Shown here piece by piece: positions 1-48,731 of a stretch of DNA of 64,000 nt. Position 1 is the first letter of the stretch; every line of letters begins with the position of its first letter. The translations under genes were made by a program, and so were the position numbers. The notes beneath the pieces were generated by a model. It searched no databases. It was not told where the DNA came from and saw only the letters and a list, made by a program, of their open reading frames with translations. Source of the stretch: a virus; IMG/VR virus record IMGVR_UViG_3300045988_122718, positions 64,001-128,000 of that record, one strand, 5' to 3'.

Positions 1-701
1 GGTCTAATATAGTTGGCGATAGGTTTGGAAATCTTGTTGTTAAAGAAATGTTATATAACTATAGGAATGGAAAAACATATTGTTTATGCGATTGTGATTG
101 TGGCAAAGAACATATTTGTTCCTTATCTAATTTATCTACTGGTCATACGACTTCATGTGGTTGCATGAAATCTGAAAAAAATTGGAATGGTAGACGTACA
201 AATTTAGTGGGGAATAGATTTGGTATGTTAGTTGTTGATGAGATGTTGTATGGATATATAAACAAGCAAACATGTTGTAAATGTACTTGTGATTGTGGGA
301 ATACATCAATTGTATATATGAGTAATTTGTTGCAAGGCTTTACTCATTCATGCGGATGTAGCGAACATAATTCTGTTGGAGAGCAATTAATTAAAAGTAT
401 ATTGGATAAAAATGAAATTAAATATATTTATAATTATAGGTTTGATGATTGTAGAAATGTTCTTCCACTTCCATTTGACTTTTATCTTCATGAATATAAT
501 ACTTGTATAGAATATGATGGTATTCAACATTTTGAGCCAATTGAATATTTTGGTGGAGAATATGCACTTCAACAACGACAAATGAATGATAATATTAAAA
601 CACAGTATTGTATTGATAATGATATCAAATTAATACGATTGCCATATACATTGTCAGAAGATGAAATAATAAATATAATTTTAAATATTTGGAATCCGTA
701 A
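1..701 (+). CDS. homing-endonuclease-like protein, 5' partial (Zn-ribbon repeats + Vsr/DUF559-type PD-(D/E)XK nuclease domain)
   Basis: The frame is open from the window edge (SNIVGDRFGNLVVKEM...). There are three copies of G-x-RFG-x-LVV...C-x-C-DCG...SCGC. The C-terminus FDFYLHEYNTCIEYDGIQHF resembles Vsr/DUF559 endonuclease cores. It sits just upstream of, and in the same orientation as, an N-terminally truncated tape-measure ORF. Confidence 0.6.
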   Translation, partial: SNIVGDRFGNLVVKEMLYNYRNGKTYCLCDCDCGKEHICSLSNLSTGHTTSCGCMKSEKNWNGRRTNLVGNRFGMLVVDEMLYGYINKQTCCKCTCDCGNTSIVYMSNLLQGFTHSCGCSEHNSVGEQLIKSILDKNEIKYIYNYRFDDCRNVLPLPFDFYLHEYNTCIEYDGIQHFEPIEYFGGEYALQQRQMNDNIKTQYCIDNDIKLIRLPYTLSEDEIINIILNIWNP

Positions 702-866
702 CGAGTAAGTGTTTTATATGGTGACATATAATTCCACGCCAACCACCCTATTATATAGGGTGATGATGTACTCTGTTCTGCACATATAATCTAAAAATGA
801 AAGTGCAGAGGCAAGGAGAAATCACTTGCCCCTTTTACTTTATGTAAAAGAGTAACAAATAGATAG
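1..866 (+). mobile_element. putative group I intron (3' portion, carries the endonuclease ORF) interrupting the tape-measure gene
   Basis: After the ORF stop (701), four consecutive hairpins follow: ACCCTAT/ATAGGGT 745-761, CTGCAC/GTGCAG 778-808, GGCAAG/CTTGCC 811-830, CTTTTAC/GTAAAAG 832-850. A GTGCAGAG string resembles the P7 region of T4 td-type introns. The tape-measure frame reopens at 856 without a start codon or RBS. The 3' splice site is only approximate (G862 or G866). Confidence 0.5.
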
Positions 867-906
867 TATTGAAGAGGCCGGTGAACTCGCTAAGAGTACA
901 GCGGTC

Positions 907-3900
907 TTGCTGAATGTTTCAGAATTCGAGAGTGCTGATGAAGCGTCAGAAGCGTTAATCAGTACCATGCAAGCTTATGGATACGCTGCAGAAGATAGTA
1001 TGCATGTTGTTGATATACTTAACGAAATAGGAAACAATTTTGCGATTTCTAGTGACGGATTGGCAACAGCTCTACAAGATTCAGCAAGTTCCTTAATGGC
1101 TGCGGGGAATTCGTTAGAACAAAGTGTAGCAATGGTAGCAGCTGCCAACAAAGTGCTTCAGGATCCTAATTCCGTAGGAAGTGCGTTGCGTACAATTTCG
1201 CTAAGAATTAGAGGAACTAGCGTAAAAGTTTTAGAAGAAATGGGTGAGGAAACTGATGGCGTTATCGAGAGCGTCAGTAAACTCCAAGCCAAAGTCAAAG
1301 GTCTAAGTGGAGTCGATATCCTAACCGACACTGGTGCTTATAAAGATACATACACAATTATCAAAGAAATTGGTCAAGTATGGGAGCAAATGAACGACAT
1401 TGACCGTGCTGCGTTACTTGAGTTGTTAGCAGGTAAGAATCGTTCGAATGCAATGGCAGCCCTACTAACTAACATGGAAGACCTTGAGGGTGCATACGAA
1501 AGTGCAATGGAAGCACAAGGTTCAGCAGAGGCCGAGAACAAAAAGTACATGAATAGTATTCAAGGTAGAATTGATCAATTTACTAATGCTTTGCAAACTA
1601 TGTGGAAAAATGCAATTGATTCTAATTTTGTAAAGTTTATTGTTAGTGTAGGTACTGGATTAGTAAAAGTTGTTAATTGGCTCGGAATGATACCAACCAT
1701 ACTTGGCACAATAGCCGGAGCTATGTCTGCAATTAAAGGACAGAATCTTTTTGTTAACTTAACTGGAAATGGAAAGTCTGGGATTATAACTGAGTTAATT
1801 CAAAAGGTTAAAGAAGGCATACCCGCTATAAGAGAATTTAATTCAATTCAAGGCGTAGATAATCAAGCCAAATTTTTAAATAGTTTAAAAGAAACTAATC
1901 CCGAACTTTCAAATTATATTACAAAGGTTATGTCGGCCTCTGCTGTAACAACCGAAAATGGAGTTGCTACAAATATAGCAAGTGTATCTCAAAAGAGATA
2001 TATAGGAAGTTTAGTTGCAGCGAAAGTGGCTTCAATAGGGTTAAAGGTTGCAACAGTTGCACTAAATGCCGCACTAACAATTGGCATTAGTTTATTGATT
2101 TCTGGAGCTATATCCGCTATATCTAAAGTAATCAATGGTGTTAAAGAGGCAAAAGAAGAAACAAAGAGGTTGACAGAAGAATTGAAGCAGCAACAAGCCG
2201 AAATAAAATCTAATATTTCTTCGTTGGAGTCATTAAAAGATGAATTTGATAAATTATCAAAGGGTGTAGACGAGTATGGCAATAATATTTCTTTGTCAAC
2301 AGAAGAATATGCAAAGTATAAATCAATAGTTGAGCAAATATTTGGGTATACTCCTACTTTAATTAGTGGATATGATAAAGAAGGAAATGCTATTGCTAAT
2401 AAAAATAGCCTCATTGAAAAATCTATAGAGCTACTAAAGGAAGAAAGAAAACAAAAGCTTTTAGAACTTGTTACAGATGATAAGCTTAAGGTGGCGTATG
2501 ACTCAGCAAAGGAAAATCATGATAAGGCAAAAAAAAAGCTTAAAAATGTAAATGTCCCATCTACATTAGCATATAGCGGTGTTAAGATTGATGATAATGG
2601 CAAAGAACATAGTGGATATGTAAATCAAATTGATAAGTATATTGAAGATGTAATTGGCGTAGAAAAAAGTGTGTGGGAGTCTCTTACTGAATATATAGCT
2701 AGAAATTCTGATGCCGTAAGAAAGAATATAGGGAAGATTATTGAGCGCTCTGGCCAAACAAAAGATGGATGGAAGGGTTTGAACGATAAACAACAAGCAG
2801 AACTTTTAAACTATTTGAACAATGTTTTATCTGGTGTGAGAGAAACAGATGCTGCGTGGGATAGTTTTATTCAGACATTGCAGCTTGTTCCACAAATATC
2901 TACTTATTATGATAAATTATCAGATTCACAGAAGAGCTTCATATCATCCTATATTAATGGGCTTGGTGATTTGAGTAATAAAACAGAAGCAGAAATTAAT
3001 AATATAAAAACCAGTATTTTATCTTTAACAAATGCAATCGGAAGTGACAAAGAGGCACAGTCTTTAATTGACCAATTATTTTCTATTGATTCAAATCTTT
3101 CTGCAAAAGAATATTCTGACAAAATATCTGAAATTTTTAATAAGCTTGTTGAAAAAGGAATAATTTCAAACGACAACAAACAAAAGTTTATAGAACAACT
3201 GTTCCCAGATTTGAAAGATATCGAAACTATGCAAGAAGATGTCAAAAAGAAAATAAAAGATGATCAACAAGATTTAGTAAATAGCTTAAATGTTCAAGAT
3301 TTAAAAATTGCATATTCAATAGATGCCAGTGATCTTTCATTTGATGAATTAAAGAAAAAAATTCAAGAAGTAAAAGTTGCTACTATTGGCGATTTTGATA
3401 TTTCTAACTATTCTGATTCAATTTCGAGTCTAAGTGAAAATATTGGTGTTCTCCAAGCCGCCCTTGAAAAATTGAATAGTGGCTCGTTTACTATGGACGA
3501 TTATGTCAAACTAATTAAGGACTTCCCAAAACTTGCAAAAGGTGTTGATGTTAGTTCTAAGAGTTTCAAGGGGTTAACTTCTAATCTAGTAAGAGCAATA
3601 AAGGCATCCCCAAAGAGCATGGTTAAGGACTTAAAAGCGTTAAAGTTACAATTAATGCAAACTGGTAGGTCTACTTCTGATATTGACCAGCTTATTTATT
3701 CCTTGGAACATATGCCAGAAAATGCTCTTGATAGTATGATTACCAAATATGCTACACTTGCAGATAATATAACTGAAGCTACTGAGGCTCAAAATGAACT
3801 AAAAGCCGCTATGGAAGAAAATCCAAATGAGGGATTTGAAACACGTGGCGAAGCTATGGATTATATGAAAGAGGCTATGAGTCGTGGAGAAATTGGTAGT

Positions 3901-6900
3901 GAATCTAACCTTTGGAATGTCGCAGAAAAATATGGATTTACTTTTGATTCTGCAAAATCAATAAATGAAAATGCTGATGCATTAGCTAAGTTCATTGCAA
4001 CACGTGAAAAGTGGTTTAAGCAGGATGATGATGGTAATTATACATATGAAGGAACAGAGGACTTCATCAAAAAAGTAGATGCGGCTGTTGCTTCTATGCC
4101 AGAGCTTCAAGAACTTATGAAGTGGGATTATAACGAAAGTACTGGGGTTCTTGATTTTGACTTTAAGAATAAAGATTGGGATCAAATTGTTAAGTATTTA
4201 AGTACATGTGAAGGCTTAATCGGATTGACATCTGATGAATGGGCGGACATGCTAGTTCAGGTCGGTCAGTATTTTAATATTGATTGGTCAAATTATAATG
4301 ATGAATTAGAATACTTAAAGAAAATAACAACTGAAGATATGGATAATAAGACCAAAGTAGAAAAATATGGTTCTGCTATGCAGGAATATTTTGGCAAGGA
4401 TTCTTCTATAGACTTGGCTAATCGCCCAATGATTAGCAGTTCAAAGATGAATACAAAGGGATGGGATATAGAAGACGGTAGTTATGCAACTGTACTTTCT
4501 AGTGCTTATTCTAATGAAGGGGGAACTGTTGCCATAACTGTAACACCAATTCTTCCAGATGGAGAAGTTTTAACAGAGGATGAACTAACAAAATATGCTA
4601 CAGAAATTGTAAACGGCGCAGACCCAGTAACATATGAATTCGAAGTCAATGGTAAGACTTATACTGGAGAAGACATTATTCTAGCAAAGCATAATGGTAA
4701 GAACCCAATAGAGGAAGCAAAAGAATATGGTAAAGCACTGCATGAAGCACAAGAAGAATATGATAAACTAAGAGACACTCTCAACATCAACACTACAATT
4801 GACGAAAAGGGTATTAATGGTCTATCTGAAATTAAAGAAATTCAAGGTGCAATCCAGAAGAATGCAGATGGTACTACTATAATTGACGAGCAGGCATTCA
4901 GAAAAGCACTAACGAGTGCCGAATACACAGAAGATCAAATTGATTTAATTATTGATAAAATTAAATACTTAAATAAAGAAGCTTTTGCTTCTGACACATT
5001 TAATATTGGCAAGATACTTGACAAAGAAACTGGCTCTGGAATTGATGGATTGTTAGAAATTAAGGAACTACAAGACGCAATTGAAAAAGATGCAAATACC
5101 GGGTTTACAGTTATTGATACGGACATGTTTACTTCTGTTCTTTCTGAGGCTGGATATACAAAAGCTCAAATTGATGAACTTATCCAAAAAATTCAAGAAT
5201 ATGAAAATGTTGTTTCTGTGGCTGGGAATACAGATCCACTTGGACTTAGTGGTGCAAATTTAAGTATTGATACATTAAAAGCATCTCTTAGTACTTTAGG
5301 TGTGTTTTTTGAAGACACTCTTGGTGACTGGTTTGATGGAAAAAGAGATCTTGTAATTAATGTTCCAAATTTAGTTTCTACACTTAAAGAAAAGGGTTGG
5401 TCTGAAGAAGCAATAAGAAGTTATTGTGAACAGCTATCTAAAGCCAACATTGAAGGATTCAATATTAAAGTCAATTCTCAAGAAATAGATGAAGCATTGG
5501 CAAAATCAGATGATGTTCCTGAAGAAAAAACGACAAACTATGAAGTAACCGGAAATGGTGCTACTACTCTTGATGGAATAGAAGATACATGGTCAAATGT
5601 TACAAAGGATAAAACAACGAATTATACCATTAATGAGACAACGGTAAAGAAAACTGTAGATGATAGTCCTAAGTGGTATAAACCATGGACCTGGTTTGCA
5701 GATGGAACTGCAAATGCTCAAGGGAATTGGGGTGCAGAACGAACAGAAACATCTCTTGTTGGTGAGTTAGGCCCAGAACTTCGTGTACGTGGAAGTCGTT
5801 GGGAAATGCTCGGTGAAAACGGGGCAGAATTTACTGATGTTAAAAAGGGCGATATTATATTCAACCATAAACAAACAGAAGAATTGTTGAAGAATGGGCA
5901 TATTACTGGTCGTGGTAAAGCGTATGCCAATGGAACAGCTTATGCTGCTGGTGACGGCACTTTTTCTAGATATAATTTTAGTGGCAATGGTGGATATACG
6001 AAGTACGATGTAAATAATAGCATAGTTGATTCGTTTGGTAATGCTGCTAGTTCAGTATCTGACGCTGCCGATGATATTTCTGATGCCGCTGATAAATTCG
6101 AAGAAGTATTCGACTGGTTTGAAGTTCTTCTAGAAGAAATCGAAGACAATATCAGCTTAATGAATGCCAAGCTAGAAAATGCAGTTGGTATAAGTGCAAA
6201 GAAAGGTATTTATTCTGAAATTCTAAATACAGAACAATTCAAGTTACAAGAATTATATGAGGGTGTCAAACTATATTCCGATTATGCCAATAAGCTTCTT
6301 GCTAAAGTTCCAGACCAGTATAAAGAAATGGCTAAAAATGGCGCGGTCGCTATCACAGACTTCCTTGGTGAAGCAAACGAAGAAGTTGTAGACTCAATTA
6401 ACAACTATCGTGAGTGGGCAAAGAAGGTATCCGACCTTAATCAGCAATTAGAAGAAACAAAGAAGACTATTGCCGATACTCATGTAGAAATACAGAATAT
6501 GCTTAAAGATGAATATGATAATCGTATATCTTTAATTACTTCTGTAAACGACCGTATACAAGATACAATAGACTTACTCGATGAAGAAGGCAAACGTTCT
6601 TCTGCTGTAATGTATGAAGAAATGATAAAAAATAGTACAAAACAATTATCAGAACTTCAAAGCAAACGTGCAGAAATGCAGAGAGCATTAGACGAAGCCG
6701 TGAGAAGCGGAGACGTAGCTAGAGAAAGCTCACAATGGTACGAGATGGTCAATGCAATCAATGATGTCGATAGTGAAATTAATGATTGTAGAATTGACCT
6801 TGAAAGTTTCCAAAACTCTATCAACCAGCTTCATTGGGATAACTTTGAAAAGTTCATTGATGCCATTGACAATGTTGGCAACGAAATTTCCAATCTAGGA

Positions 6901-8490
6901 GACCTAATCGACGAAGAAGACATTGTTGATGAAGTCGGTAATTGGACAGATAAAGGTATCACTGCACTTGGTTTGTATGCTCAAGAGATGGAACGTGCCA
7001 AATACAGAGCAGAACAGTATGGCAAAGAGATTGAGTATCTAAACCAAGAATATGCCGCTGGAAAGTATAGCGAAGATGAATATCTTGAGAAACTACAAGA
7101 ATTACGAGACGGCCAATGGGATAGCATTAAATCTTATGAGGCTGCAAAAAAGGCTATTGTTGATTTAAATAAAACTCGTATTGAGGCTATAAAAAATGGT
7201 ATTCAGAAAGAAATAGACGCTTATTCGGAACTTATTGACAAGAAGAAGGAAGAACTTAGCTTACAGAAAGAGTCACATGACTTCCAGAAGCAAGTAGCTG
7301 AACAGCAAAAAAATATTGCAAATATTCAAAAACAATTGGCTGCAATGGCCGGAGATAATTCTGCGTCTGCAATTGCTAGGAAAAAACAATTAGAAGCAGA
7401 ACTTGCCGCAGCACAAGAAGAACTCGATGAACTATATTATAATCATAGTGTTGAGAAGCAGCAAGAAGCACTTGATAAATCCTTAGAGAATTATCAGGAC
7501 AATAAGCAAGACGAAATGGACGCTCTTGACGAGTCTCTCAAGAACGAAGAACAAATCATTGCCGATAGTTATGCCACTATTACGGCAAATACGGAATCTG
7601 TAGCACAAACATTATCTGATATAGCAAGTCAGTATGGGATTACCCTATCTGATTCTGTTATGCAGCCTTGGCTAGATGGTGCTAACGCCATTGGTACTTA
7701 TCAAGAGCAGTTAGACACCTCTATGAGTTCTTTCACTCAGCAACTAGAGGCTCTTAAGCAGATGTATGCCGACTTACAAAATCAGGCTGATAGTGCTGGT
7801 AAGAGTATGGTTGATGCGATAAATGGTAGCAAGTCTAAAACAGAAGGTGCAACATATACGCCACCAATTCCATCACAACCAAGTACCCCATCAAAGCCAT
7901 CAAAACCATCTGCTCCATCTACTGGTTCGTCCGTTACAGTGAAAAAATCTGCAACACGCTTTTCAAGAGATGGTGGTAATGGTACTAGAATGCAGTCATG
8001 GGTCCCTGGTTCAACATTTACTGTTTATCAGGTTAGTGGTTCAGAAGTTCTAATTGGAAGAAATGGTCAATATACTGGATGGGTGCGTCTATCTGATATT
8101 GAAGGATATGCAAAGGGTACTAAAGAAATTCAAAATAACCAATTAGCAATGCTAGACGAACTTGGAGACGAGTTGGTTTTACATGCCGGTAAGAATGGCA
8201 GGTTAGAATATCTAACTAAGGGTACATCTGTTGTTCCAGCAGATATTACAAGCAACTTAATGAAGCTTGGCTCCTTAGACCCGAAGGATATTCTTGAAAG
8301 AAATAGACCTTCTATTGGTGCTCCACATGTTATTGATAATAGTATAGAGTTAAAAATGGAATTTGGCAGTCTTGTACATGTTGATACTGTTTCAAACGAT
8401 ACATTGCCATACTTGCAAAAGATGGTCAGAAATGAGTTTGATAATTGCATGAAACACGTAAATCAAGGGCTAAAGAAATTTGTTCGTTAA
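907..8490 (+). CDS. tail tape measure protein (C-terminal exon; frame is open back to 856)
   Basis: The N-terminus (ALISTMQAYGY...DILNEIGNNFAISSDGLATALQDSASSL...SALRTISLRIRG) matches the TP901-type TMP core. The body is long coiled-coil and TM segments are present. It is followed by Dit/Tal genes. The called TTG start lies inside the conserved domain, and in-frame upstream residues IEEAGELAKSTAV continue the domain. Confidence 0.9.
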   Translation: MLNVSEFESADEASEALISTMQAYGYAAEDSMHVVDILNEIGNNFAISSDGLATALQDSASSLMAAGNSLEQSVAMVAAANKVLQDPNSVGSALRTISLRIRGTSVKVLEEMGEETDGVIESVSKLQAKVKGLSGVDILTDTGAYKDTYTIIKEIGQVWEQMNDIDRAALLELLAGKNRSNAMAALLTNMEDLEGAYESAMEAQGSAEAENKKYMNSIQGRIDQFTNALQTMWKNAIDSNFVKFIVSVGTGLVKVVNWLGMIPTILGTIAGAMSAIKGQNLFVNLTGNGKSGIITELIQKVKEGIPAIREFNSIQGVDNQAKFLNSLKETNPELSNYITKVMSASAVTTENGVATNIASVSQKRYIGSLVAAKVASIGLKVATVALNAALTIGISLLISGAISAISKVINGVKEAKEETKRLTEELKQQQAEIKSNISSLESLKDEFDKLSKGVDEYGNNISLSTEEYAKYKSIVEQIFGYTPTLISGYDKEGNAIANKNSLIEKSIELLKEERKQKLLELVTDDKLKVAYDSAKENHDKAKKKLKNVNVPSTLAYSGVKIDDNGKEHSGYVNQIDKYIEDVIGVEKSVWESLTEYIARNSDAVRKNIGKIIERSGQTKDGWKGLNDKQQAELLNYLNNVLSGVRETDAAWDSFIQTLQLVPQISTYYDKLSDSQKSFISSYINGLGDLSNKTEAEINNIKTSILSLTNAIGSDKEAQSLIDQLFSIDSNLSAKEYSDKISEIFNKLVEKGIISNDNKQKFIEQLFPDLKDIETMQEDVKKKIKDDQQDLVNSLNVQDLKIAYSIDASDLSFDELKKKIQEVKVATIGDFDISNYSDSISSLSENIGVLQAALEKLNSGSFTMDDYVKLIKDFPKLAKGVDVSSKSFKGLTSNLVRAIKASPKSMVKDLKALKLQLMQTGRSTSDIDQLIYSLEHMPENALDSMITKYATLADNITEATEAQNELKAAMEENPNEGFETRGEAMDYMKEAMSRGEIGSESNLWNVAEKYGFTFDSAKSINENADALAKFIATREKWFKQDDDGNYTYEGTEDFIKKVDAAVASMPELQELMKWDYNESTGVLDFDFKNKDWDQIVKYLSTCEGLIGLTSDEWADMLVQVGQYFNIDWSNYNDELEYLKKITTEDMDNKTKVEKYGSAMQEYFGKDSSIDLANRPMISSSKMNTKGWDIEDGSYATVLSSAYSNEGGTVAITVTPILPDGEVLTEDELTKYATEIVNGADPVTYEFEVNGKTYTGEDIILAKHNGKNPIEEAKEYGKALHEAQEEYDKLRDTLNINTTIDEKGINGLSEIKEIQGAIQKNADGTTIIDEQAFRKALTSAEYTEDQIDLIIDKIKYLNKEAFASDTFNIGKILDKETGSGIDGLLEIKELQDAIEKDANTGFTVIDTDMFTSVLSEAGYTKAQIDELIQKIQEYENVVSVAGNTDPLGLSGANLSIDTLKASLSTLGVFFEDTLGDWFDGKRDLVINVPNLVSTLKEKGWSEEAIRSYCEQLSKANIEGFNIKVNSQEIDEALAKSDDVPEEKTTNYEVTGNGATTLDGIEDTWSNVTKDKTTNYTINETTVKKTVDDSPKWYKPWTWFADGTANAQGNWGAERTETSLVGELGPELRVRGSRWEMLGENGAEFTDVKKGDIIFNHKQTEELLKNGHITGRGKAYANGTAYAAGDGTFSRYNFSGNGGYTKYDVNNSIVDSFGNAASSVSDAADDISDAADKFEEVFDWFEVLLEEIEDNISLMNAKLENAVGISAKKGIYSEILNTEQFKLQELYEGVKLYSDYANKLLAKVPDQYKEMAKNGAVAITDFLGEANEEVVDSINNYREWAKKVSDLNQQLEETKKTIADTHVEIQNMLKDEYDNRISLITSVNDRIQDTIDLLDEEGKRSSAVMYEEMIKNSTKQLSELQSKRAEMQRALDEAVRSGDVARESSQWYEMVNAINDVDSEINDCRIDLESFQNSINQLHWDNFEKFIDAIDNVGNEISNLGDLIDEEDIVDEVGNWTDKGITALGLYAQEMERAKYRAEQYGKEIEYLNQEYAAGKYSEDEYLEKLQELRDGQWDSIKSYEAAKKAIVDLNKTRIEAIKNGIQKEIDAYSELIDKKKEELSLQKESHDFQKQVAEQQKNIANIQKQLAAMAGDNSASAIARKKQLEAELAAAQEELDELYYNHSVEKQQEALDKSLENYQDNKQDEMDALDESLKNEEQIIADSYATITANTESVAQTLSDIASQYGITLSDSVMQPWLDGANAIGTYQEQLDTSMSSFTQQLEALKQMYADLQNQADSAGKSMVDAINGSKSKTEGATYTPPIPSQPSTPSKPSKPSAPSTGSSVTVKKSATRFSRDGGNGTRMQSWVPGSTFTVYQVSGSEVLIGRNGQYTGWVRLSDIEGYAKGTKEIQNNQLAMLDELGDELVLHAGKNGRLEYLTKGTSVVPADITSNLMKLGSLDPKDILERNRPSIGAPHVIDNSIELKMEFGSLVHVDTVSNDTLPYLQKMVRNEFDNCMKHVNQGLKKFVR

Positions 8491-44202: not shown

Positions 44203-44278
44203 TGGAGCACGTGACGAGGCTCGAACTCGCAACAGCCAGATTGGAAATCTGGAACTCTACCAATTGAGCTACACGTGC
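44203..44278 (-). tRNA. tRNA-Gly(UCC)
   Basis: Cloverleaf GCACGTG..CCAGA-TTTCCAA-TCTGG..GCGAG-TTCGAGC-CTCGT-CACGTGC-T-CCA. The CCA is encoded. Confidence 0.9.
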
Positions 44279-44284
44279 ATATAA

Positions 44285-44356
44285 TATTCCACACAGGAGT
44301 CGAACCTGTCTCTCTACGTTCGCGGCGTAGTGTTCTATCCGATGAACTAGTGGAAT
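44285..44356 (-). tRNA. tRNA-Arg(GCG)-like with C33
   Basis: ATTCCAC..CTACG-CCGCGAA-CGTAG..ACAGG-TTCGACT-CCTGT-GTGGAAT. The anticodon loop has C at position 33. No CCA is encoded. Confidence 0.6.
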
Positions 44357-44364
44357 TTGACTTA

Positions 44365-45120
44365 CTATATATCAAATTCTTTGTGTCTACCACAATCTCT
44401 TGATAACCACGTTATATTTCTTTTACCATTACCTTTGTTTGCTCCTCTATATGTAGGAGTTAATGAATGACAATTAGGGCATAACAATGTTAAATTTTCT
44501 TCTTTATTATTTGTTGCATCTCCATCAATATGTTCTATTTCAAGTGGCAAAGTTCCAGTATATGGATTAATTTCACTCCACCCACATTTTGCACATTTAT
44601 TTTCGTATTTATCAAAAATATATTTTTTAATAGACGAAGATAGGTCTATCCATTTATCACCTGTTAATCCATCCCATTCTCCATCTTTCCATTGTTTTAT
44701 TTTTTGTTTATATCTATATTCATTAAAACATTTTGCAGAACAATATTTATTTTTCTTAGGTATTTCTTTATTACAATTAATACAATAATGATGTCCTACT
44801 TTCTTTTTTCTATGTTGGTTGCTATATGTCACAGAGCATGAACGGGAACAAAACTCAATTCTTTTAAAATCACTATTTTTTTGATTATATTTTTGCGAGA
44901 TTTCTTTCCCACAATTTTTACAAAACTTAATATCTAATTCTTCTTTAATGTGCGGACATTTTTCAATCATACAATATTTTATTGTAGATAATTGCTTTTC
45001 AAATGTTTTATGACACCCATCACATTCTACAATATATATAGTATGATTGTCTTTTGTTCTTTTGTCAGATATCCCTATTATTGTATAACATCCATATTTT
45101 TCTCCTATGTGTTTATCCAT
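44365..45120 (-). CDS. HNH endonuclease (multi-Zn-ribbon N-terminus)
   Basis: The C-terminus LEIEHIDGDATNNKEENLTLLCPNCHS is an HNH core. It is embedded in the tRNA array. Confidence 0.8.
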   Translation of the reverse strand: MDKHIGEKYGCYTIIGISDKRTKDNHTIYIVECDGCHKTFEKQLSTIKYCMIEKCPHIKEELDIKFCKNCGKEISQKYNQKNSDFKRIEFCSRSCSVTYSNQHRKKKVGHHYCINCNKEIPKKNKYCSAKCFNEYRYKQKIKQWKDGEWDGLTGDKWIDLSSSIKKYIFDKYENKCAKCGWSEINPYTGTLPLEIEHIDGDATNNKEENLTLLCPNCHSLTPTYRGANKGNGKRNITWLSRDCGRHKEFDI

Positions 45121-45152
45121 TATGTATCACCACGATGTCTATTATTTTAAGA

Positions 45153-45284
45153 TGGTGGGCCTGGAGGAACTCGAATCCTCGACCAATAGCTTAATGGTGG
45201 GAATGGCAGGTGCTGCCCCTACTTGCAAAAGCTTTTCTGAATACACCCCCAAGGCTACTGCTCTACCTACTGAGCTACAGACCC
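45153..45284 (-). tRNA. tRNA-Lys(UUU) interrupted by a 56-nt tRNA-like minihelix
   Basis: GGGTCTG-TA-GCTC..GAGC-A-GTAGC-CTT[56 nt]TTAA-GCTAT-TGGTC-GAGGA-TTCGAGT-TCCTC-CAGGCCC-A-CCA. The length is 76 nt after removal, and the body resembles bacterial tRNA-Lys. Confidence 0.8.
45195..45250 (-). ncRNA. nested tRNA-like minihelix (intron candidate) in tRNA-Lys
   Basis: GGGGGTG-(21 nt)-GTAGG-GGCAGCA-CCTGC-CATTCCC-A-CCA: a 7-bp acceptor-like helix (2 G-U), a 5-bp stem, a 7-nt GGCAGNA loop, a discriminator and CCA. Confidence 0.7.
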
Positions 45285-45287
45285 ATA

Positions 45288-45363
45288 TGGTCTGAGTGGT
45301 GAGTCCCGCCCTCACGGCCTCGTGGTCCCAGGCCACGCGCTCTGCTAACTGAGCTACACCCAG
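45288..45363 (-). tRNA. free-standing tRNA-like gene: Pro(UGG)-type anticodon loop with C33 and non-canonical T-loop GGCGGGA
   Basis: CTGGGTG-TA-GCTC-AGTTAGCA-GAGC-G-CGTGG-CCTGGGA-CCACG-AGGCC-GTGAG-GGCGGGA-CTCAC-CACTCAG-A-CCA. The D-loop lacks GG. Confidence 0.6.
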
Positions 45364-45368
45364 AAATA

Positions 45369-45445
45369 TGGCACCCCGTGTTGGACTCAAACCAACGACA
45401 CATGGCTTAGAAGGCCATTGCTCTGTTCAACTGAGCTAACGGGGC
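45369..45445 (-). tRNA. tRNA-Arg(UCU)
   Basis: GCCCCGT..ATGGC-CTTCTAA-GCCAT..GTTGG-TTTGAGT-CCAAC-ACGGGGT-G-CCA. Confidence 0.85.
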
Positions 45446-45450
45446 ATATA

Positions 45451-45539
45451 TGGCGCGGCGCTGAGGTGTCGATCCCCATTCCTTTCACAGAACCACTAGT
45501 TTTCAAGACTAGGTTGCAAGCCGTTGCAATTAACGCCGC
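45451..45539 (-). tRNA. tRNA-Ser(UGA), class II
   Basis: GCGGCGT..CTAGT-CTTGAAA-ACTAG, a long variable arm, TGGGG-ATCGACA-CCTCA-GCGCCGC-G-CCA. Confidence 0.8.
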
Positions 45540-45649
45540 ATATTTTTGTAATCTCAAACTCCTCCACACAGATTACTGGGCACCCCTTACCTCGAATGCT
45601 AGTTAGTAGCAACAAACGTTTGTGCCGTTTCCACAAATAAAGATACACT

Positions 45650-45844
45650 TTACTGCGTATTAACCTCTGTATATTCAGTACTAGATAAGGTAATCATTCT
45701 TTCGCATCCGTCCTGTGGACAAAAAATATTTGCAACCCCAAGATTATTTATTCCGTCAGACGGATTAAATGCAAATTCACAACCACAATAAGGGCAGATT
45801 GCCTTATAGGTCTTAACTTTGCCTCCCTTGATAATATACTTCAT
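45650..45844 (-). CDS. small Zn-ribbon protein
   Basis: CPYCGC...CPQDGC. ORF with RBS inside the tRNA island. Confidence 0.5.
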   Translation of the reverse strand: MKYIIKGGKVKTYKAICPYCGCEFAFNPSDGINNLGVANIFCPQDGCERMITLSSTEYTEVNTQ

Positions 45845-45855
45845 AGTAACACCTC

Positions 45856-45975
45856 TTAATTAAACTTGCTTAACTGCCGCTTAACCTTACGGATAAGACC
45901 TTCGTTCATAGTCTCGCCTCGTGCCAGAAGCTTTGCTAAACGATTTTCATAATGTTCCTTAGTGCGAAAATTCAT
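45856..45975 (-). CDS. small basic ORF (39 aa)
   Basis: MNFRTKEHYENRLAKLLARGE... with an AGGAGG RBS. Below the ORF-track cutoff. Confidence 0.35.
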   Translation of the reverse strand: MNFRTKEHYENRLAKLLARGETMNEGLIRKVKRQLSKFN

Positions 45976-46001
45976 AATATGTACCTCCTAAAATTTTTGT
46001 A

Positions 46002-46124
46002 TGGCAGGGGTAGCAGGGTTCGAACCTACGATGCGGGAGTCTGGTCAAGGTAGTTGGTACTGCCCCAACTAAATTCACTTGAATACCTTGAAAGTCCCGT
46101 GCCTTACCACTTGGCTATACCCCT
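46002..46124 (-). tRNA. tRNA-Gln(UUG) interrupted by a 49-nt tRNA-like minihelix
   Basis: AGGGGTA-TA-GCC-AAGTGGTAA-GGC-A-CGGGA-CTTT[49 nt]GAC-TCCCG-CATC-GTAGG-TTCGAAC-CCTGC-TACCCCT-G-CCA. The body resembles bacterial tRNA-Gln (GCCAAG.GGUAAGGCA, weak 1-72 pair, G73). Confidence 0.8.
46042..46090 (-). ncRNA. nested tRNA-like minihelix (intron candidate) in tRNA-Gln
   Basis: CAAGGTA-TTCAAGTGAATTTA-GTTGG-GGCAGTA-CCAAC-TACCTTG-A-CCA. Confidence 0.7.
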
Positions 46125-46127
46125 ATA

Positions 46128-46202
46128 TGGTGGATCTGACGTGACTCGAACACGCAACCTCTTCCTTGCAAGGGAAGCTTTCTCCCATTGAAATACAGAC
46201 CC
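46128..46202 (-). tRNA. tRNA-Ala(UGC)
   Basis: GGGTCTG..CTTCC-CTTGCAA-GGAAG..GCGTG-TTCGAGT-CACGT-CAGATCC-A-CCA. G3:U70 is present. Confidence 0.9.
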
Positions 46203-46363
46203 TTATTTTGTGAGGTAACTACACTATGTATACCTAATGTAGCTACTGGCTTTCAAACTCCCCACCTCAAACCATTTTTATCTGTCTCTCCTCTTGGCCA
46301 ACCAGATTTGAGTGATTTGAACGGCGCGCCGTCCTCACATTGATAAAATAGTAAAATCAACAA
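46203..46363 (-). ncRNA. unassigned structured RNA candidate (~135 nt closed by TGTGAGG/CCTCACA)
   Basis: In - sense there is a 7-bp closing helix and the palindrome ACGGCGCGCCGT. Nested helices are TTCAAAT/GTTTGAA and CTCAAAT/GTTTGAG. A 9-bp hairpin is GTAGCTACA/TGTAGTTAC. There is no ORF. It does not fit a tRNA. Confidence 0.35.
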
Positions 46364-46454
46364 TGGCGCGATAGGAAGGCTTCGAACCTTCGCACGGCTT
46401 TCACCGCCTAGCAGATTAGCAATCTACCCTCTTCAACCACTTGAGTACTACCGC
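46364..46454 (-). tRNA. tRNA-Ser(GCU), class II
   Basis: GCGGTAG..GTAGA-TTGCTAA-TCTGC, a long variable arm, GAAGG-TTCGAAG-CCTTC-CTATCGC-G-CCA. Confidence 0.85.
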
Positions 46455-46457
46455 ATA

Positions 46458-46661
46458 TTAATCTAATGTTTTTCCAGTTGCTAATTCAAAAATTAAATTA
46501 TCAACACAAGGAATGTGCATTACCTCTCTCTCATATTGAGTACGATGTTCAATATCATTAATATAGATAGGACAATCTTTACATTCTACATTTTCACAAA
46601 AACGAACAGCTTTTTCTACTACTTTAGAATTCGCAAATTTTATATATTCTTCCCAACGCAT
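46458..46661 (-). CDS. hypothetical Cys-containing protein
   Basis: ORF with a GGAGG RBS (ATG at 46661) directly downstream of a pseudoknot motif. Confidence 0.5.
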   Translation of the reverse strand: MRWEEYIKFANSKVVEKAVRFCENVECKDCPIYINDIEHRTQYEREVMHIPCVDNLIFELATGKTLD

Positions 46662-46678
46662 AAAATCCTCCATAAAAC

Positions 46679-46709
46679 GAGCAGTTTATACAGTGATACT
46701 CAGCACTAT
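46679..46709 (-). ncRNA. H-type pseudoknot motif, copy 1
   Basis: In - sense: ATAGTG-CT-GAGTA-T-CACTGT-ATAAAC-TGCTC. Both stems pair, with G-U pairs valid only in - sense. Confidence 0.55.
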
Positions 46710-46762
46710 CCGTCTGGGTTCCAATATTAGAACCGTCCACAATTGAGTTTTGACCACCATAG

Positions 46763-46837
46763 TGGAGCTGATGGAGAATTTCGAAATCTCGACCTAGTGA
46801 TTACAAATCACTCGCTCTGCCTCTGAGCTACACCAGC
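46763..46837 (-). tRNA. tRNA-Thr(UGU)
   Basis: GCTGGTG..AGTGA-TTTGTAA-TCACT..T-arm GAGAT-TTCGAAA-TTCTC (one mismatch)-CATCAGC-T-CCA. Confidence 0.8.
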
Positions 46838-46891
46838 AGATCTCCTCGTCTTTCCGAGGTGTCAATCACACTTTTACATTAATAATCTTAA

Positions 46892-46920
46892 ATTATTCTT
46901 TAATAGGAAGATGACGTCAA
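46892..46920 (-). promoter_or_regulatory. candidate sigma-A promoter inside the tRNA island
   Basis: TTGACG (46915-46920), 17 nt spacer, AATAAT (46892-46897). It is enclosed by the inverted repeat AATCACAC/GTGTGATT. Confidence 0.4.
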
Positions 46921-46943
46921 TCTGTGTGATTACCTTTTATGTG

Positions 46944-47012
46944 AGGTCTTAATTGGAATCGAACCAACACCTGCCCTACCATAGGGCCGATCTACCATTG
47001 AACTATAAGACC
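46944..47012 (-). tRNA. aberrant tRNA-like gene (anticodon arm GCCCT-ATGGT-AGGGC, 5-nt loop); identity undetermined
   Basis: The acceptor (GGTCTTA/TAAGACC), D-arm and T-arm (GTTGG-TTCGATT-CCAAT) are canonical. The anticodon loop is 2 nt short. Confidence 0.45.
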
Positions 47013-47015
47013 TAT

Positions 47016-47092
47016 GGTGACGCTACCGGGGATCGAACCCGGACACTCCACGGTGAAAGCGTGGTAACTCTACCAATTCGTCCATAGCGCCA
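47016..47092 (-). tRNA. tRNA-Glu(UUC)
   Basis: GGCGCTA..CCACG-CTTTCAC-CGTGG..CCGGG-TTCGATC-CCCGG-TAGCGTC-A-CCA. Confidence 0.85.
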
Positions 47093-47099
47093 TATCTTT

Positions 47100-47130
47100 G
47101 GACAGTTTATACAGTGATGTCCAGCACTGT
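47100..47130 (-). ncRNA. H-type pseudoknot motif, copy 2
   Basis: In - sense: ACAGTG-CT-GGACA-T-CACTGT-ATAAAC-TGTCC. It ends 8 nt before the tRNA-Glu 5' end. Confidence 0.6.
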
Positions 47131-47142
47131 CACTTTTGGGAG

Positions 47143-47227
47143 TGGTAGCGGTGGTGGGCTACGATCCCACACGTCATAAGACATTGGTTTTTGAGACCAA
47201 CCTGTCTACCTGTTCCAGCACACCGCC
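47143..47227 (-). tRNA. tRNA-Leu(CAA), class II
   Basis: GGCGGTG..TTGGT-CTCAAAA-ACCAA, a long variable arm, GTGGG-ATCGTAG-CCCAC-CACCGCT-A-CCA. Confidence 0.8.
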
Positions 47228-47434
47228 ATATTAAGCACAACCTACACTGAGCTAGCCTCGCTCACACTTGCTTTCCCGAACACGTCCCACCCTCGGTTAT
47301 GCTTTGATATTGTTTATCCTATTTTCACAATAACATATGCCTCGTTCTCTTCTTGTTACTGTGGGTCAGTAACTTAGTAGCTTTTCTCTTGTGGATAGCA
47401 CTTATCAATACACCGAGAACCCCAATAGGCGGCA
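47228..47434 (-). ncRNA. unassigned structured non-coding block (207 nt)
   Basis: No ORF. Long-range pairs are GCCT...AGGC and GTTCTC...GAGAAC. Hairpins are GTTACTG-ACCCA-CAGTAAC and TGAGC-GAGGCTA-GCTCA. A D-arm-like TAGCTCAGTGTAGG lies at the 3' end. Confidence 0.3.
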
Positions 47435-47511
47435 TGGTTGCGTGAGGTTAGATTTGAACTAACGATCTTCAGCTTATGGGGCTGACGAGATGACCACTTC
47501 TCTACTCCGCA
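47435..47511 (-). tRNA. tRNA-Met/Ile2(CAU) with C33 and a bulged acceptor stem
   Basis: TGCGGAG-TA-GAGA-AGTGGTCA-TCTC-G-TCAGC-CCCATAA-GCTGA-AGATC-GTTAG-TTCAAAT-CTAAC-CTC(A)CGCA-A-CCA. Confidence 0.6.
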
Positions 47512-47515
47512 GTAT

Positions 47516-47546
47516 CTAGCAGACTATAATGCCGTCTGCTATGGCA
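47516..47546 (-). ncRNA. spacer pseudoknot between tRNA-Ile and tRNA-Met
   Basis: In - sense: ATGCC-A-TAGCAGAC-GGCAT-TATA-GTCTGCTA. It has two interleaved perfect stems. Confidence 0.45.
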
Positions 47547-47566
47547 TCAGAAAGAGGTGTTGCATG

Positions 47567-47719
47567 TGGTCCCCTACCGGTGGATTGAACACCGAACCTC
47601 CCGATTATTGGCCTCCTCAGTAAGTCCTGCCCTTACATCTCTAAATCCTGCTGTTTAGTAGTTCTACTATTAAACTATGAGGAGAAGTCGGGTGCTCTAG
47701 CCAGTTGAGCTAGCAGGGG
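47567..47719 (-). tRNA. tRNA-Ile(UAU) interrupted by a 76-nt tRNA-like element
   Basis: CCCCTGC-TA-GCTC..GAGC-A-CCCGA-CTT[76 nt]ATAA-TCGGG-AGGTT-CGGTG-TTCAATC-CACCG-GTAGGGG-A-CCA. The length is 77 nt after removal. Confidence 0.75.
47609..47684 (-). ncRNA. nested full-length tRNA-like element (intron candidate) in tRNA-Ile
   Basis: CTCCTCA-TA-GTT-TAATAGTAG-AAC-TA-CTAAA-CAGCAGGA-TTTAG-AGAT-GTAAG-GGCAGGA-CTTAC-TGAGGAG-G-CCA. It is cloverleaf-sized, with an 8-nt anticodon-like loop and a GGCAGGA T-loop. Confidence 0.65.
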
Positions 47720-48133
47720 ATATATAATCCGGCTTTTACGGTACGACCAGTAAGATGGACGCGCTTGAATTTCACAATTGCCTAGCGTTTCAGGTACTTT
47801 TTAGGAGTTTGGATGTAATACCTTATCCATTCACGCATAGTCCATTAGTACCATGGGCTATAGGACTCACTCCAAGTGGCCGGATTCAACTCCCCTGTAA
47901 ATTCAGGTCTTCCTATCCCCTACCCTTGAAGGATGTTTACCATACTTTTATACCGCTGGCACACATCAGGCGGCTGTGGTAATGATAGCAAGCGGAGCCG
48001 TGCATGACTCCATTTCATAGTGTTTCGTCAATTGCCTTCAGCTCATCCAAGTAATATCAACAGTTAGCAAATTCTGTCGAGAGCTTATTCTCATCGGTAA
48101 TCACTTATGAAATTTGCACTACTCACTATCATC
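47720..48133 (-). ncRNA. large unassigned structured non-coding block (414 nt)
   Basis: It is visibly GC-richer than the flanks, has no credible ORF or RBS, and lies between tRNA-Asn and tRNA-Ile. Its 3' ~55 nt are repeated at 48291-48345. Confidence 0.35.
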
Positions 48134-48210
48134 TGGCGGGAGTAGAAGGACTTGAACCTACGACATCTTGCTTAACAGGCAAGCGCTCTAACCAACTGAG
48201 CTATACTCCC
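48134..48210 (-). tRNA. tRNA-Asn(GUU)
   Basis: GGGAGTA..CTTGC-CTGTTAA-GCAAG..GTAGG-TTCAAGT-CCTTC-TACTCCC-G-CCA. Confidence 0.85.
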
Positions 48211-48213
48211 AAA

Positions 48214-48290
48214 TGGCGACCCATACCAGACTTGAACTGGTGTCCTCTTGCGTGACAGGCAAGCGTGATACTCTTCTTCACCAATGGGCC
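48214..48290 (-). tRNA. tRNA-Asp(GUC)
   Basis: GGCCCAT..CTTGC-CTGTCAC-GCAAG..ACCAG-TTCAAGT-CTGGT-ATGGGTC-G-CCA. Confidence 0.85.
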
Positions 48291-48408
48291 ATATTATGCC
48301 GGCTTTTACGGCATATTTAGCTAGAATATGCTTGAATTCCACAAAAGATGTTTTCTCTATATTAGACACAGTTATTCCCCGGTAGAAAATCTAACACCCG
48401 CTGCGTCT

Positions 48409-48493
48409 TGGTGGGCCAGGTTGGTGTCAATCCAACTACTCTCGAAGGAAACGGATTTACAATCCGCCGCGTTTGCCGATTCGCTACTGACCC
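48409..48493 (-). tRNA. tRNA-Tyr(GUA), class II
   Basis: GGGTCAG..GCGGA-TTGTAAA-TCCGT, a long variable arm, GTTGG-ATTGACA-CCAAC-CTGGCCC-A-CCA. Confidence 0.85.
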
Positions 48494-48550
48494 ATATAAC
48501 TATACTTTAGTATTTTGTTTTAATGTTTGAGAATTACTTGCCAAGGTCAA

Positions 48551-48683
48551 TGGTGCGGGTAGCGAGACTCGAACTCGCACGGATATTTCACCGAGGGATT
48601 TTTGGTGGATATTGTAGGTACTGCCCCTACCAAAGCACTTGCTATACCCAAGTCCCTTATGTCTGCCATTCCATCATACCCGC
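48551..48683 (-). tRNA. tRNA-Leu(UAA), class II, interrupted by a 47-nt tRNA-like minihelix
   Basis: GCGGGTA..A-AGGGA-CTT[47 nt]AAAA-TCCCT-CGGTGAAATATCCGT-GCGAG-TTCGAGT-CTCGC-TACCCGC-A-CCA. The length is 86 nt after removal. AAGGGA.UUAAAAUCCCUCGG matches bacterial tRNA-Leu(UAA). Confidence 0.8.
48603..48649 (-). ncRNA. nested tRNA-like minihelix (intron candidate) in tRNA-Leu
   Basis: GGGTATA-GCAAGTGCTTTG-GTAGG-GGCAGTA-CCTAC-AATATCC-A-CCA. Confidence 0.7.
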
Positions 48684-48691
48684 ATATCACA

Positions 48692-48721
48692 GGGCAGCTT
48701 TAAGGTGATGCCCAGCACCAT
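48692..48721 (-). ncRNA. H-type pseudoknot motif, copy 3
   Basis: In - sense: ATGGTG-CT-GGGCA-T-CACCTT-AAAGC-TGCCC. It ends 8 nt before the tRNA-Leu(UAA) 5' end and lies just after the stop of the TROVE-like gene. Confidence 0.55.
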
Positions 48722-48731
48722 ACTTAACTCC

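What the first reader, a model, noticed from the sequence alone, without database searches (positions are those of the whole stretch)
1..907. Tape-measure gene apparently interrupted by a group I intron carrying a homing endonuclease
The 2527-aa TMP ORF starts with a TTG in the middle of the conserved TP901-type core. Its frame is open for 17 more codons upstream (QIDSIEEAGELAKSTAV) that continue the domain, with no start codon or RBS. Immediately upstream lie about 165 nt of dense hairpins, including a GTGCAGAG string like the P7 region of T4 td-type introns. Before that is a same-strand ORF with a Vsr/DUF559-type nuclease domain that runs off the window edge. Introns in phage structural genes are uncommon, and one in a tape-measure gene would be notable. 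The alternative is a free-standing endonuclease that splits the TMP into two polypeptides.
Basis: partly seen in the sequence, partly recalled or inferred. Interest (0 to 1): 0.7.

Follow-up and report, generated by a model that had tools for sequence, protein, structure and literature searches.

The report
Group I intron splitting tape-measure gene
The phage tail tape-measure gene is interrupted by a 1.2-kb self-splicing group I intron that carries its own homing endonuclease; this is real and well supported, but the same kind of intron in tape-measure genes has been described since 2008.

Summary
The window starts inside a 1220-nt intervening sequence; its last base is window 862. I recovered the missing upstream part from the source contig (L001 = window + 1442).

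- **Exons.** A 3057-codon ORF ends 12 codons after ...MAANWARLG. Joining ...CTAGGGT to ATAGTATTGAA (window 863) rebuilds a Tyr codon and the near-invariant ARLGY motif. The TP901 profile then matches in one stretch (121 bits, against 20.9 + 86.8 for the two halves).
- **Structure.** The insert has full group I architecture: P1 with U·G, P2 to P9.2, a P3/P7 pseudoknot, an extra P7.1 helix and a terminal G.
- **Covariation.** Related introns pair at 87–92% of cells, against 31–46% in shifted controls. A model built only from other members hits window 696–866 at 164 bits.
- **Mobility.** The ribozyme is 93–95% identical in a phage whose flanking exons are 57–62% identical. Close relatives lack it at this site.
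- **Endonuclease.** The 302-aa ORF sits in loop L6a and has a Vsr-like (EDxHD) nuclease domain.

Two corrections: GTGCAGAG is the 3' strand of P9, not P7, and tape-measure introns were already described (Tourasse & Kolstø 2008). Splicing itself is inferred, not shown. Verdict: new member of a known kind, moderate interest.

The parts
1..862 (+). 3' 862 nt of a 1220-nt group I intron. Its first 358 nt lie upstream of the window, at L001 1085-1442.
   Evidence: The source contig was recovered and is identical to the window over the 19,662 nt of overlap. The splice sites come from P1 pairing, the terminal G and frame restoration.
1..701 (+). Homing endonuclease ORF, last 233 of 302 codons (frame of window 3). 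Stop codon TAA at 699-701. The start is TTG, 207 nt upstream of the window, 9 nt after AGGAGG.
   Evidence: PHROG homing/HNH endonuclease families, E 6e-48. Invariant E, D, E, H, D in the catalytic domain. AlphaFold model with pLDDT 89.7 whose best solved matches include Vsr 1cw0/1vsr. More than 7000 homologues, two of them named 'very-short-patch-repair endonuclease' by JGI.
684..697 (+). 3' strands of P6a (684-692, AATATTTGG) and P6 (695-697, TCC). They are formed by the last codons of the endonuclease ORF (N I W N P stop).
   Evidence: They pair with GGA and CTAAATATT just after P4' in the 5' half. P6 covaries GGA/UCC against GGG/CCC, and all 9 P6a pairs covary.
702..707 (+). P7 5' strand, CGAGTA
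   Evidence: Pairs with 769-775. Covaries across the family (GAGUA/UACUC, GACUA/UAGUC, GAUCA/UGAUC, GCAUA/UAUGC and others) with an invariant G:C then A:U.
714..731 (+). P7.1 hairpin (7 bp, GUGA tetraloop) between P7 and P3'
   Evidence: All 7 pairs covary and all 6 modelled pairs covary. Rfam's alignment of the relative L033 treats it as a 28-nt insertion at the same place.
738..743 (+). P3 3' strand, GCCAAC. It pairs with GTTGGC in the 5' half, outside the window.
   Evidence: 100% of cells paired and 5 of 6 pairs covary, across the ~1-kb ORF.
744..762 (+). P8 hairpin, CACCCTA / TAGGGTG
769..775 (+). P7 3' strand, TACTCTG, preceded by J8/7 ATGATG (763-768)
   Evidence: Rfam aligns the same element of L033 to the consensus AAGAUAUAGUC.
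777..809 (+). P9 hairpin.
810..850 (+). P9.1 (810-830) and P9.2 (832-850) hairpins
   Evidence: 99.5% and 88% of cells paired, and all modelled pairs covary.
851..862 (+). Conserved 3' tail AGTAACAAATAG, ending in the terminal G (omega G) at 862, which is the 3' splice site
   Evidence: AGTAAC is invariant in the 7-sequence alignment. Only this G gives an in-frame junction.
863..8490 (+). Tape-measure exon 2. It supplies the last two bases of the split Tyr codon and then 2541 codons and the stop.
   Evidence: TIGR01760 positions 78-298 alone and 9-298 after joining to exon 1. Intron-less homologues are contiguous across the junction.

Best explanation
A mobile group I intron of the phage IA type, with a P7.1 helix, interrupts the tape-measure gene of a roughly 155-kb gut-metagenome phage. 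The insertion lies inside the codon for the Tyr of the conserved ARLGY motif of the TP901-type core.

**Splicing (inferred from the anatomy).** The last exon bases GGGU pair with the guide GCCC to form P1, with a U·G wobble at the cleavage site. The P3-P9 core binds guanosine at the invariant G:C of P7. The first transesterification cuts after that U, 358 nt upstream of the window. The terminal G at window 862 then directs exon ligation. This recreates UAU and gives a single tape-measure protein of about 5587 aa.

**Mobility (inferred).** A 302-aa homing endonuclease is encoded in loop L6a. It has three Cys-rich repeat modules and a Vsr-like EDxHD nuclease domain. It would cut intron-less tape-measure alleles of co-infecting relatives at or near this site, so that repair copies the intron in. 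The last codons of the endonuclease ORF are also the 3' strands of P6a and P6, so translation of the ORF's end and ribozyme folding probably compete.

Shown here: the gene split, the RNA architecture and its covariation, the presence/absence polymorphism, and the nuclease fold. Not shown: splicing and cleavage activity.
For: - **Exon continuity.** The upstream ORF ends ...MAANWARLG plus 12 read-through codons. The joined product matches TIGR01760 positions 9-298 in one stretch at 121 bits, against 20.9 and 86.8 for the halves. PF10145 starts at position 3 instead of 32.
- **Intron-less homologues.** Twelve homologues are contiguous over the junction; R, L and G are invariant and Y nearly so.
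- **Full structure.** All 84 proposed pairs are standard pairs in this copy.
- **Covariation.** In 11 family members 87.3% of cells pair, against 31-42% when partners are slid. 56 pairs change on both sides, and the score is 0.433 against at most 0.121. In 35 members, for the 3' half, 92.4% pair and the score is 0.56 against at most 0.10.
- **Guide matches exon.** Each member's guide sequence is complementary to its own exon end, with U·G at the splice site.
- **Independent model.** A covariance model built without this sequence hits window 696-866 at 163.8 bits, E 7e-39.
- **Rfam.** Intron_gpI aligns the ORF-less relative L033 end to end with the same element assignments (19.7 bits, E 0.007).
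- **Mobility.** The ribozyme is 93-95% identical to L020 while flanking exons are 57-62% identical. L004 and L005 lack it at this site. L011 and L025 are the same intron without and with an ORF.
- **Target preference.** Ten of ten spliced relatives are TP901 tape-measure cores.
- **Recurrence.** The same arrangement occurs in 24 or more contigs of a relative.
- **Endonuclease.**
Against: - Rfam RF00028 gives no hit on this copy or on MaeS, L004 or L005. It reaches only 19.7 bits, against a gathering score of 50, on an ORF-less relative.
- There are no RNA or protein data, so splicing is inferred.
- P10 pairing with exon 2 is weak by eye.
- P7.2, which is typical of IA2 introns, is absent.
- The nuclease has no significant sequence match to I-Bth0305I or Vsr, and the Foldseek E-values are only about 0.02.
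- The covariation alignment was fitted to the model, so it leans towards the structure. One search used a plain MAFFT alignment.
Confidence: 0.92

Rival explanations
1. A free-standing homing endonuclease gene has landed in the tape-measure gene. The gene is now expressed as two separate polypeptides (3057 aa and about 2510-2530 aa) without RNA splicing.
For: Gene callers annotate it that way: 3057 aa, 302 aa and 2507 aa. A TTG at 907 and an ATG at 967 could start a downstream product. Free-standing endonucleases between phage genes are common (general knowledge).
Against: About 310 nt of non-coding flank fold into a covarying group I core. That core is more conserved (93-95%) than the exons (57-62%). 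The break falls inside a codon of an invariant motif in the middle of the TP901 domain. There is no start codon at the junction, and no AGGAGG-type site was seen by eye before 907. ORF-less copies of the same insert sit at the same site (L021, L033), which an endonuclease-only insertion cannot explain.
Confidence: 0.04
2. It is a group I intron, but a decayed one that no longer splices, so this phage or prophage carries a broken tape-measure gene.
For: Splicing was not tested. The contig carries an integrase, so it could be a defective prophage. Rfam does not recognise the intron.
Against: Every one of the 84 modelled pairs is intact in this copy, with no non-standard pair in the model alignment. 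The U·G, the terminal G and the invariant P7 G:C are present. The endonuclease ORF and both very long exon ORFs are open. Near-identical arrangements recur in many independent contigs.
Confidence: 0.03
3. It is an assembly artefact or chimeric join in a metagenomic contig.
For: The source is a metagenome assembly.
Against: Four contigs carry the identical downstream neighbour gene (the 367-aa ORF). A 76%-identical endonuclease sits in the same arrangement in 24 or more contigs from JGI and ENA samples. An IMG/VR contig (L020) has the same intron at the same site.
Confidence: 0.01

Closest known systems
Group I introns TMP-IVS1, IVS2 and IVS3 in tape-measure genes of Bacillus cereus-group prophages (Tourasse & Kolstø 2008, PMC2504315)
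   Same: Phage-type IA group I introns inserted at several conserved sites of a prophage tape-measure gene. Related introns adapt P1 and the guide sequence to different sites, and copies exist with and without endonuclease genes.
   Different: No detectable nucleotide similarity to Bacillus records in the phage collection. The host gene here is about four times longer. The Bacillus sequences themselves were not compared with the covariance model.
T4 td intron with I-TevI, and Staphylococcus phage Twort orf142 introns (subgroup IA2)
   Same: Same architecture from P1 to P9.2, an extra helix after P7, the ORF looped out of P6a as in td, and a similar 3' tail (GUAACA...G). This comparison rests on my own knowledge of those introns.
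   Different: No P7.2. P7 reads GAGUA/UACUC instead of the canonical GACUA/UAGUC. The endonuclease is Vsr-like, not GIY-YIG. Not tested by alignment here.
I-Bth0305I, the EDxHD (Vsr-like) homing endonuclease of the recA intron of Bacillus phage 0305phi8-36 (Taylor et al. 2011, PMC3239194)
   Same: Intron-encoded, two-part enzyme with a C-terminal Vsr-like nuclease carrying conserved E, D, H and D residues.
   Different: No significant sequence match to PDB 3R3P. The N-terminal region here is three Cys-rich repeat modules rather than NUMOD/helix-turn-helix motifs. The ORF is in P6a, not P5.
Unannotated intron in the tape-measure gene of Microcystis phage MaeS (MT362618.1)
   Same: Homologous ribozyme core (blastn E 3e-5; model hit at 45.5 bits). 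It also splits a TP901 tape-measure core and carries a Vsr-like endonuclease ending in NP-stop.
   Different: It is inserted about 60 codons further downstream (LNE|V), has the canonical P7 sequence, and lacks P7.1.

Membership tests
Group I self-splicing intron | P1 helix formed by the 5' exon end and an internal guide sequence, with a U·G wobble at the 5' splice site | tested here: met
   GGGU / GCCC in this copy. In 11 relatives the guide changes with the exon (GGUU/GACC, GGAU/GUCC, UCGGU/GCCGA, GAGGU/GCCUC), always with U·G. Read.
Group I self-splicing intron | Conserved core: P4-P6 and P3-P8 domains, with a P3/P7 pseudoknot | tested here: met
   P3 100% paired with 5 of 6 pairs covarying; P7 97%; P4 invariant; P5, P6 and P8 covary. 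One search confirms P7, P8 and P9 in 35 sequences.
Group I self-splicing intron | Guanosine-binding G:C pair in P7, and a terminal G at the 3' splice site | tested here: met
   The G:C (34 of 34) and the adjacent A:U (34 of 34) are invariant in P7. The intron ends ...AAATAG at window 862, and all relatives have a G at the in-frame junction. Assigning this G:C as the binding site is an inference.
Group I self-splicing intron | Score at or above the Rfam RF00028 gathering threshold (50 bits) | tested here: not met
   No hit on the window or L001. The ORF-less relative L033 scores 19.7 bits, E 0.007 in a 381-nt search, with a concordant alignment. The ~900-nt ORF and the P7.1 insertion are the likely causes.
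Group I self-splicing intron | Self-splicing with guanosine, giving ligated exons | not testable with these tools
   Needs RNA work. Only the in silico junction is available.
Subgroup IA2 (phage type) | Extra helices P7.1 and P7.2 around P3' | tested here: inconclusive
   P7.1 is present and covaries. There is no P7.2, because P8 follows P3' directly. MaeS lacks both.
EDxHD / Vsr-like homing endonuclease | Composite catalytic motif E, D, x, H, D in a Vsr-like fold | tested here: met
   E6, D38, E49, H55 and D75 are invariant in 6 intron-encoded homologues. Model pLDDT 89.7. Foldseek finds Vsr 1cw0_A and 1vsr at probability 0.99-1.0, TM 0.48-0.50, but E only 0.02-0.04.
EDxHD / Vsr-like homing endonuclease | Detectable sequence homology to I-Bth0305I or Vsr | tested here: not met
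   phmmer against PDB finds nothing at E up to 1. A profile search gives only DUF559-like 3hrl at E 0.98. No Pfam family passes threshold.
EDxHD / Vsr-like homing endonuclease | Site-specific cleavage of the intron-less allele | not testable with these tools
   Candidate substrates are the intron-less sites of L004 and L005.
TP901-type tape-measure protein (TIGR01760 / PF10145) | Contiguous match to the core-domain profile above the curated cutoff | tested here: met
   Met only after splicing in silico: 121 bits over profile positions 9-298 (cutoff 28.8), and PF10145 at 87 bits over positions 3-201.

The most novel reading that the evidence does not exclude
This intron may be one member of a large, uncatalogued clade of phage IA-type group I introns that Rfam's model misses and that specialises in the TP901 tape-measure core. 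The clade occupies at least six different sites within about 120 codons, occurs at up to three or four copies per gene, and exchanges the DNA-binding half of its endonuclease while keeping the ribozyme and the site. The host gene would encode a tape-measure protein of about 5,600 aa. By the usual 1.5 Å per residue, that implies a tail near 0.8 µm, at or beyond the longest I know of.
Probability: 0.4. Interest if true: 0.5.

Novelty: new member of a known kind. Interest (0 to 1): 0.35.

Why it matters
- **Annotation.** Gene callers split this gene into a 3057-aa protein, a 302-aa 'hypothetical' and a 2507-aa 'minor tail protein'. The biological product is probably one tape-measure protein of about 5587 aa. 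The same error is present in the GenBank record of Microcystis phage MaeS and in many metagenomic contigs.
- **Detection.** Rfam's group I model misses this family. The model built here, or a curated version of it, would find many more copies.
- **Biology.** The family illustrates how one ribozyme retargets to neighbouring sites of a conserved structural gene by changing only P1, and how endonuclease modules are swapped. The principle is established, so the gain is incremental.

Tried and rejected
- **Rfam cmscan.** No Intron_gpI hit on the window, on L001 with the whole intron, on MaeS or on L004/L005. The long ORF and P7.1 defeat the model. It aligns only an ORF-less relative when the search space is small.
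- **Megablast of window 1-3000 against phages.** One hit, to a Klebsiella phage endonuclease gene. Not useful for context.
- **Exact look-ups.** The 2527-aa ORF product is not on record, because the gene caller used a later start. The upstream DNA was obtained through the neighbouring 367-aa gene instead.
- **blastn of the 3' ribozyme half against phages.** Only chance-level hits.
- **Sequence and profile searches of the nuclease against PDB.** Not significant.
- **Genome-collection pattern scan.** By my estimate about half of the 116 hits are expected by chance. Among the 80 loci returned, the model found family copies in seven.
- **First attempt at P7.** I rejected this because too little sequence follows it for P3', P8 and P7', and because comparison with MaeS placed P7 directly after the endonuclease stop codon.
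- **Other element types.** Intein and group II intron readings were rejected. There are stop codons in frame and a separate ORF, and no reverse transcriptase.
Full report
**Observation.**
- An ORF of 2527 codons runs from a TTG at 907 to 8490.
- Its frame stays open for 17 codons upstream (QIDSIEEAGELAKSTAV) with no start codon.
- A same-strand ORF enters from the window edge and stops at 699-701.
- The 161 nt between that stop and position 862 fold into five stable hairpins.
- Exon 2 alone begins at position 78 of the TIGR01760 tape-measure profile and position 32 of PF10145, so the domain is truncated.

**Recovering the missing half.**
- The window lacks the 5' part of whatever interrupts the gene. 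An exact look-up of the neighbouring 367-aa protein returned a 155-kb metagenome contig.
- That contig (L001) is identical to the window over the 19,662 nt they share, at an offset of 1442.
- Upstream lies an ORF called as 3057 aa. It ends ...DLTNMAANWARLG, followed by 12 unrelated codons and a stop.
- Next come 112 nt of non-coding sequence, an AGGAGG site, and a TTG that starts the 302-aa endonuclease ORF.

**Exon junction.**
- Joining ...CTAGGGT (L001 1084) to ATAGTATTGAAG (window 863) makes a TAT codon and reads ...ANWARLG-Y-SIEEAGELAK.
- The joined protein matches TIGR01760 positions 9-298 in one stretch at 121 bits. The separate halves score 20.9 and 86.8. PF10145 now starts at position 3.
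- A database search with the joined sequence found 430 proteins at E of 1e-10 or better, many covering 95-100% of the query.
- In an alignment of twelve of these, R, L and G are invariant, Y is nearly invariant, and no gap falls at the junction.

**RNA structure.** Rfam found nothing on this copy. A blastn hit of the 5' flank led to Microcystis phage MaeS. There, an unannotated, homologous element also splits a tape-measure gene and has the canonical group I R and S sequences. Comparison with MaeS fixed the assignment in this intron:

| Element | Sequence or position |
|---|---|
| P1 | GGGU / GCCC, with U·G at the splice site |
| P2 | 8 bp, GUAA loop |
| P3 | GUUGGC / GCCAAC, pairing across the ORF |
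| P4 | UCGGGA / UUCCGA |
| P5 | CCCA / UGGG, GAGA loop |
| P6 and P6a | 3' strands are the last codons of the endonuclease ORF |
| P7 | CGAGUA / UACUCUG |
| P7.1 | hairpin between P7 and P3' |
| P8, P9, P9.1, P9.2 | hairpins in window 744-850 |
| 3' end | terminal G at window 862 |

- All 84 pairs are standard pairs in this copy.

**Family and covariation.**
- A pattern taken from P4-P5 found 29 IMG/VR loci. Their flanks show the same architecture.
- On a plain MAFFT alignment of 11 ORF-deleted members, 87.3% of cells pair, against 31-42% with partners slid. 56 of 84 pairs change on both sides, and the covariation score is 0.433 against at most 0.121. No shuffle reached the observed values.
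- A covariance model of the 3' half was built from seven members, excluding this phage and its close relatives. It hits window 696-866 at 163.8 bits, E 7e-39, with no non-standard pair, and nothing else in the window reaches E 0.1.
On that alignment, which is fitted to the model, 92.4% of cells pair and the score is 0.56 against at most 0.10.
- Rfam's Intron_gpI aligns the ORF-less relative L033 end to end with the same element assignments. It scores only 19.7 bits, E 0.007, well below the gathering score of 50.

**Mobility.**
- L020 and L035 carry the same intron at exactly the same site.
- Between L001 and L020 the ribozyme halves are 93-95% identical, while the flanking 600 nt of each exon are 57-62% identical.
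- The closest tape-measure relatives, L004 (65% aa identity) and L005, have uninterrupted DNA at this site. They carry about 1.75-kb insertions at other sites of the same domain.
- L011 and L025 are the same intron without and with an ORF.
- In ten relatives, splicing in silico gives an open frame that matches TIGR01760 across the junction (nine of the ten above its curated cut-off).
- The insertion sites across the eleven spliced relatives are AAD|W, RLG|Y (one copy at RLG|E), VGD|G, NFG|T, VSW|I and LNE|V.
- The family therefore targets the tape-measure core and retargets by changing P1.

**Endonuclease.**
- PHROG profiles annotated as HNH, homing or intron-encoded endonucleases match at up to E 6e-48.
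- More than 7000 database homologues exist.
- Pfam and PDB sequence searches are not significant.
- The catalytic domain keeps E, D, E, H and D invariant. This fits the EDxHD composite motif defined for I-Bth0305I.
- An AlphaFold model (pLDDT 89.7) has E. coli Vsr among its best solved matches (probability 0.99-1.0, TM 0.48-0.50), though Foldseek E-values are only 0.02-0.04.
- The N-terminal region is three Cys-rich repeat modules. In L020 it is replaced by an unrelated sequence, while the C-terminal domain and the ribozyme are kept.

**Comparison with what is known.**
- Tourasse & Kolstø (2008, PMC2504315) described IA1 and IA2 group I introns at three sites in tape-measure genes of Bacillus cereus-group prophages. 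Their account includes retargeting through P1 and copies that lack endonuclease genes.
- This locus is therefore a new member of a known kind.
- Beyond that paper, this work adds the breadth of this particular family, its invisibility to Rfam, multi-copy genes, and the very large host gene.

**Limits.**
- Splicing and cleavage are inferred; no RNA or protein data were available.
- The 5' 358 nt of the intron and all of exon 1 lie outside the window and come from the matching contig.
- Subgroup assignment is provisional, because P7.1 is present but P7.2 is absent.

Noticed in passing
window 863-8490 plus the upstream exon on L001 (gene table): The spliced tape-measure protein would be about 5587 aa (3045 + 1 + 2541). 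The relative L035 has exon ORFs of 2531 and 2811 aa, preceded by two small ORFs in the position where tail chaperone genes usually lie. At 1.5 Å per residue this implies a tail of about 0.8 µm. That is longer than the roughly 5000-aa tape measure of Thermus phage P23-45/P74-26, as far as I recall.
   Followed up: partly
L003 (Microcystis phage MaeS, MT362618.1) 2487-3799 of the locus: The GenBank record annotates the tape-measure gene as separate 'hypothetical proteins'. A 1313-nt group I intron of this family with a Vsr-like endonuclease splits it at LNE|V. The spliced product matches TIGR01760 at 146.5 bits.
   Followed up: yes
L021 800-2900: One tape-measure region carries an ORF-less member of this family (about 800-1090). 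Three further Rfam Intron_gpI matches follow within 2 kb (1217-1617, 1838-2214, 2499-2890; 36-48 bits), which suggests four introns in tandem.
   Followed up: no
L020 6016-7284 and 7713-7893; also L012, L011, L034, L016, L018, L059: Several tape-measure genes hold two or three copies of the family. In L020 the exon 2 frame breaks again after ...DPNSVG. The L020 endonuclease has the same C-terminal nuclease domain but an unrelated N-terminal half.
   Followed up: partly
L004 6418-8191 and L005 6971-8725: The closest relatives lack this intron. They have about 1.75-kb insertions, with endonuclease-like ORFs, at two other sites of the same domain. The upstream ORFs both end in ...QKCA, which hints at a shared and different intron type. 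Neither Rfam nor model R1 recognises them.
   Followed up: partly
window 44203-50648, minus strand: An array of 16 tRNA genes by Rfam. Three matches are 118-129 nt long (45156-45284, 46005-46124, 50531-50648) and are not called by ARAGORN. They may be tRNAs with insertions of about 50 nt.
   Followed up: no
window 684-701: The last six codons of the endonuclease ORF (N I W N P stop) double as the 3' strands of P6a and P6 and as J6/7. 'NP-stop' is conserved in every endonuclease of the family, even when the rest has diverged. This suggests that the RNA structure constrains the protein's C-terminus.
   Followed up: partly
L018 6556-6618: A RAGATH-18 RNA match (61.9 bits) lies immediately upstream of a model R1 match at 6610-6769 (44.5 bits), overlapping it by a few bases.
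   Followed up: no
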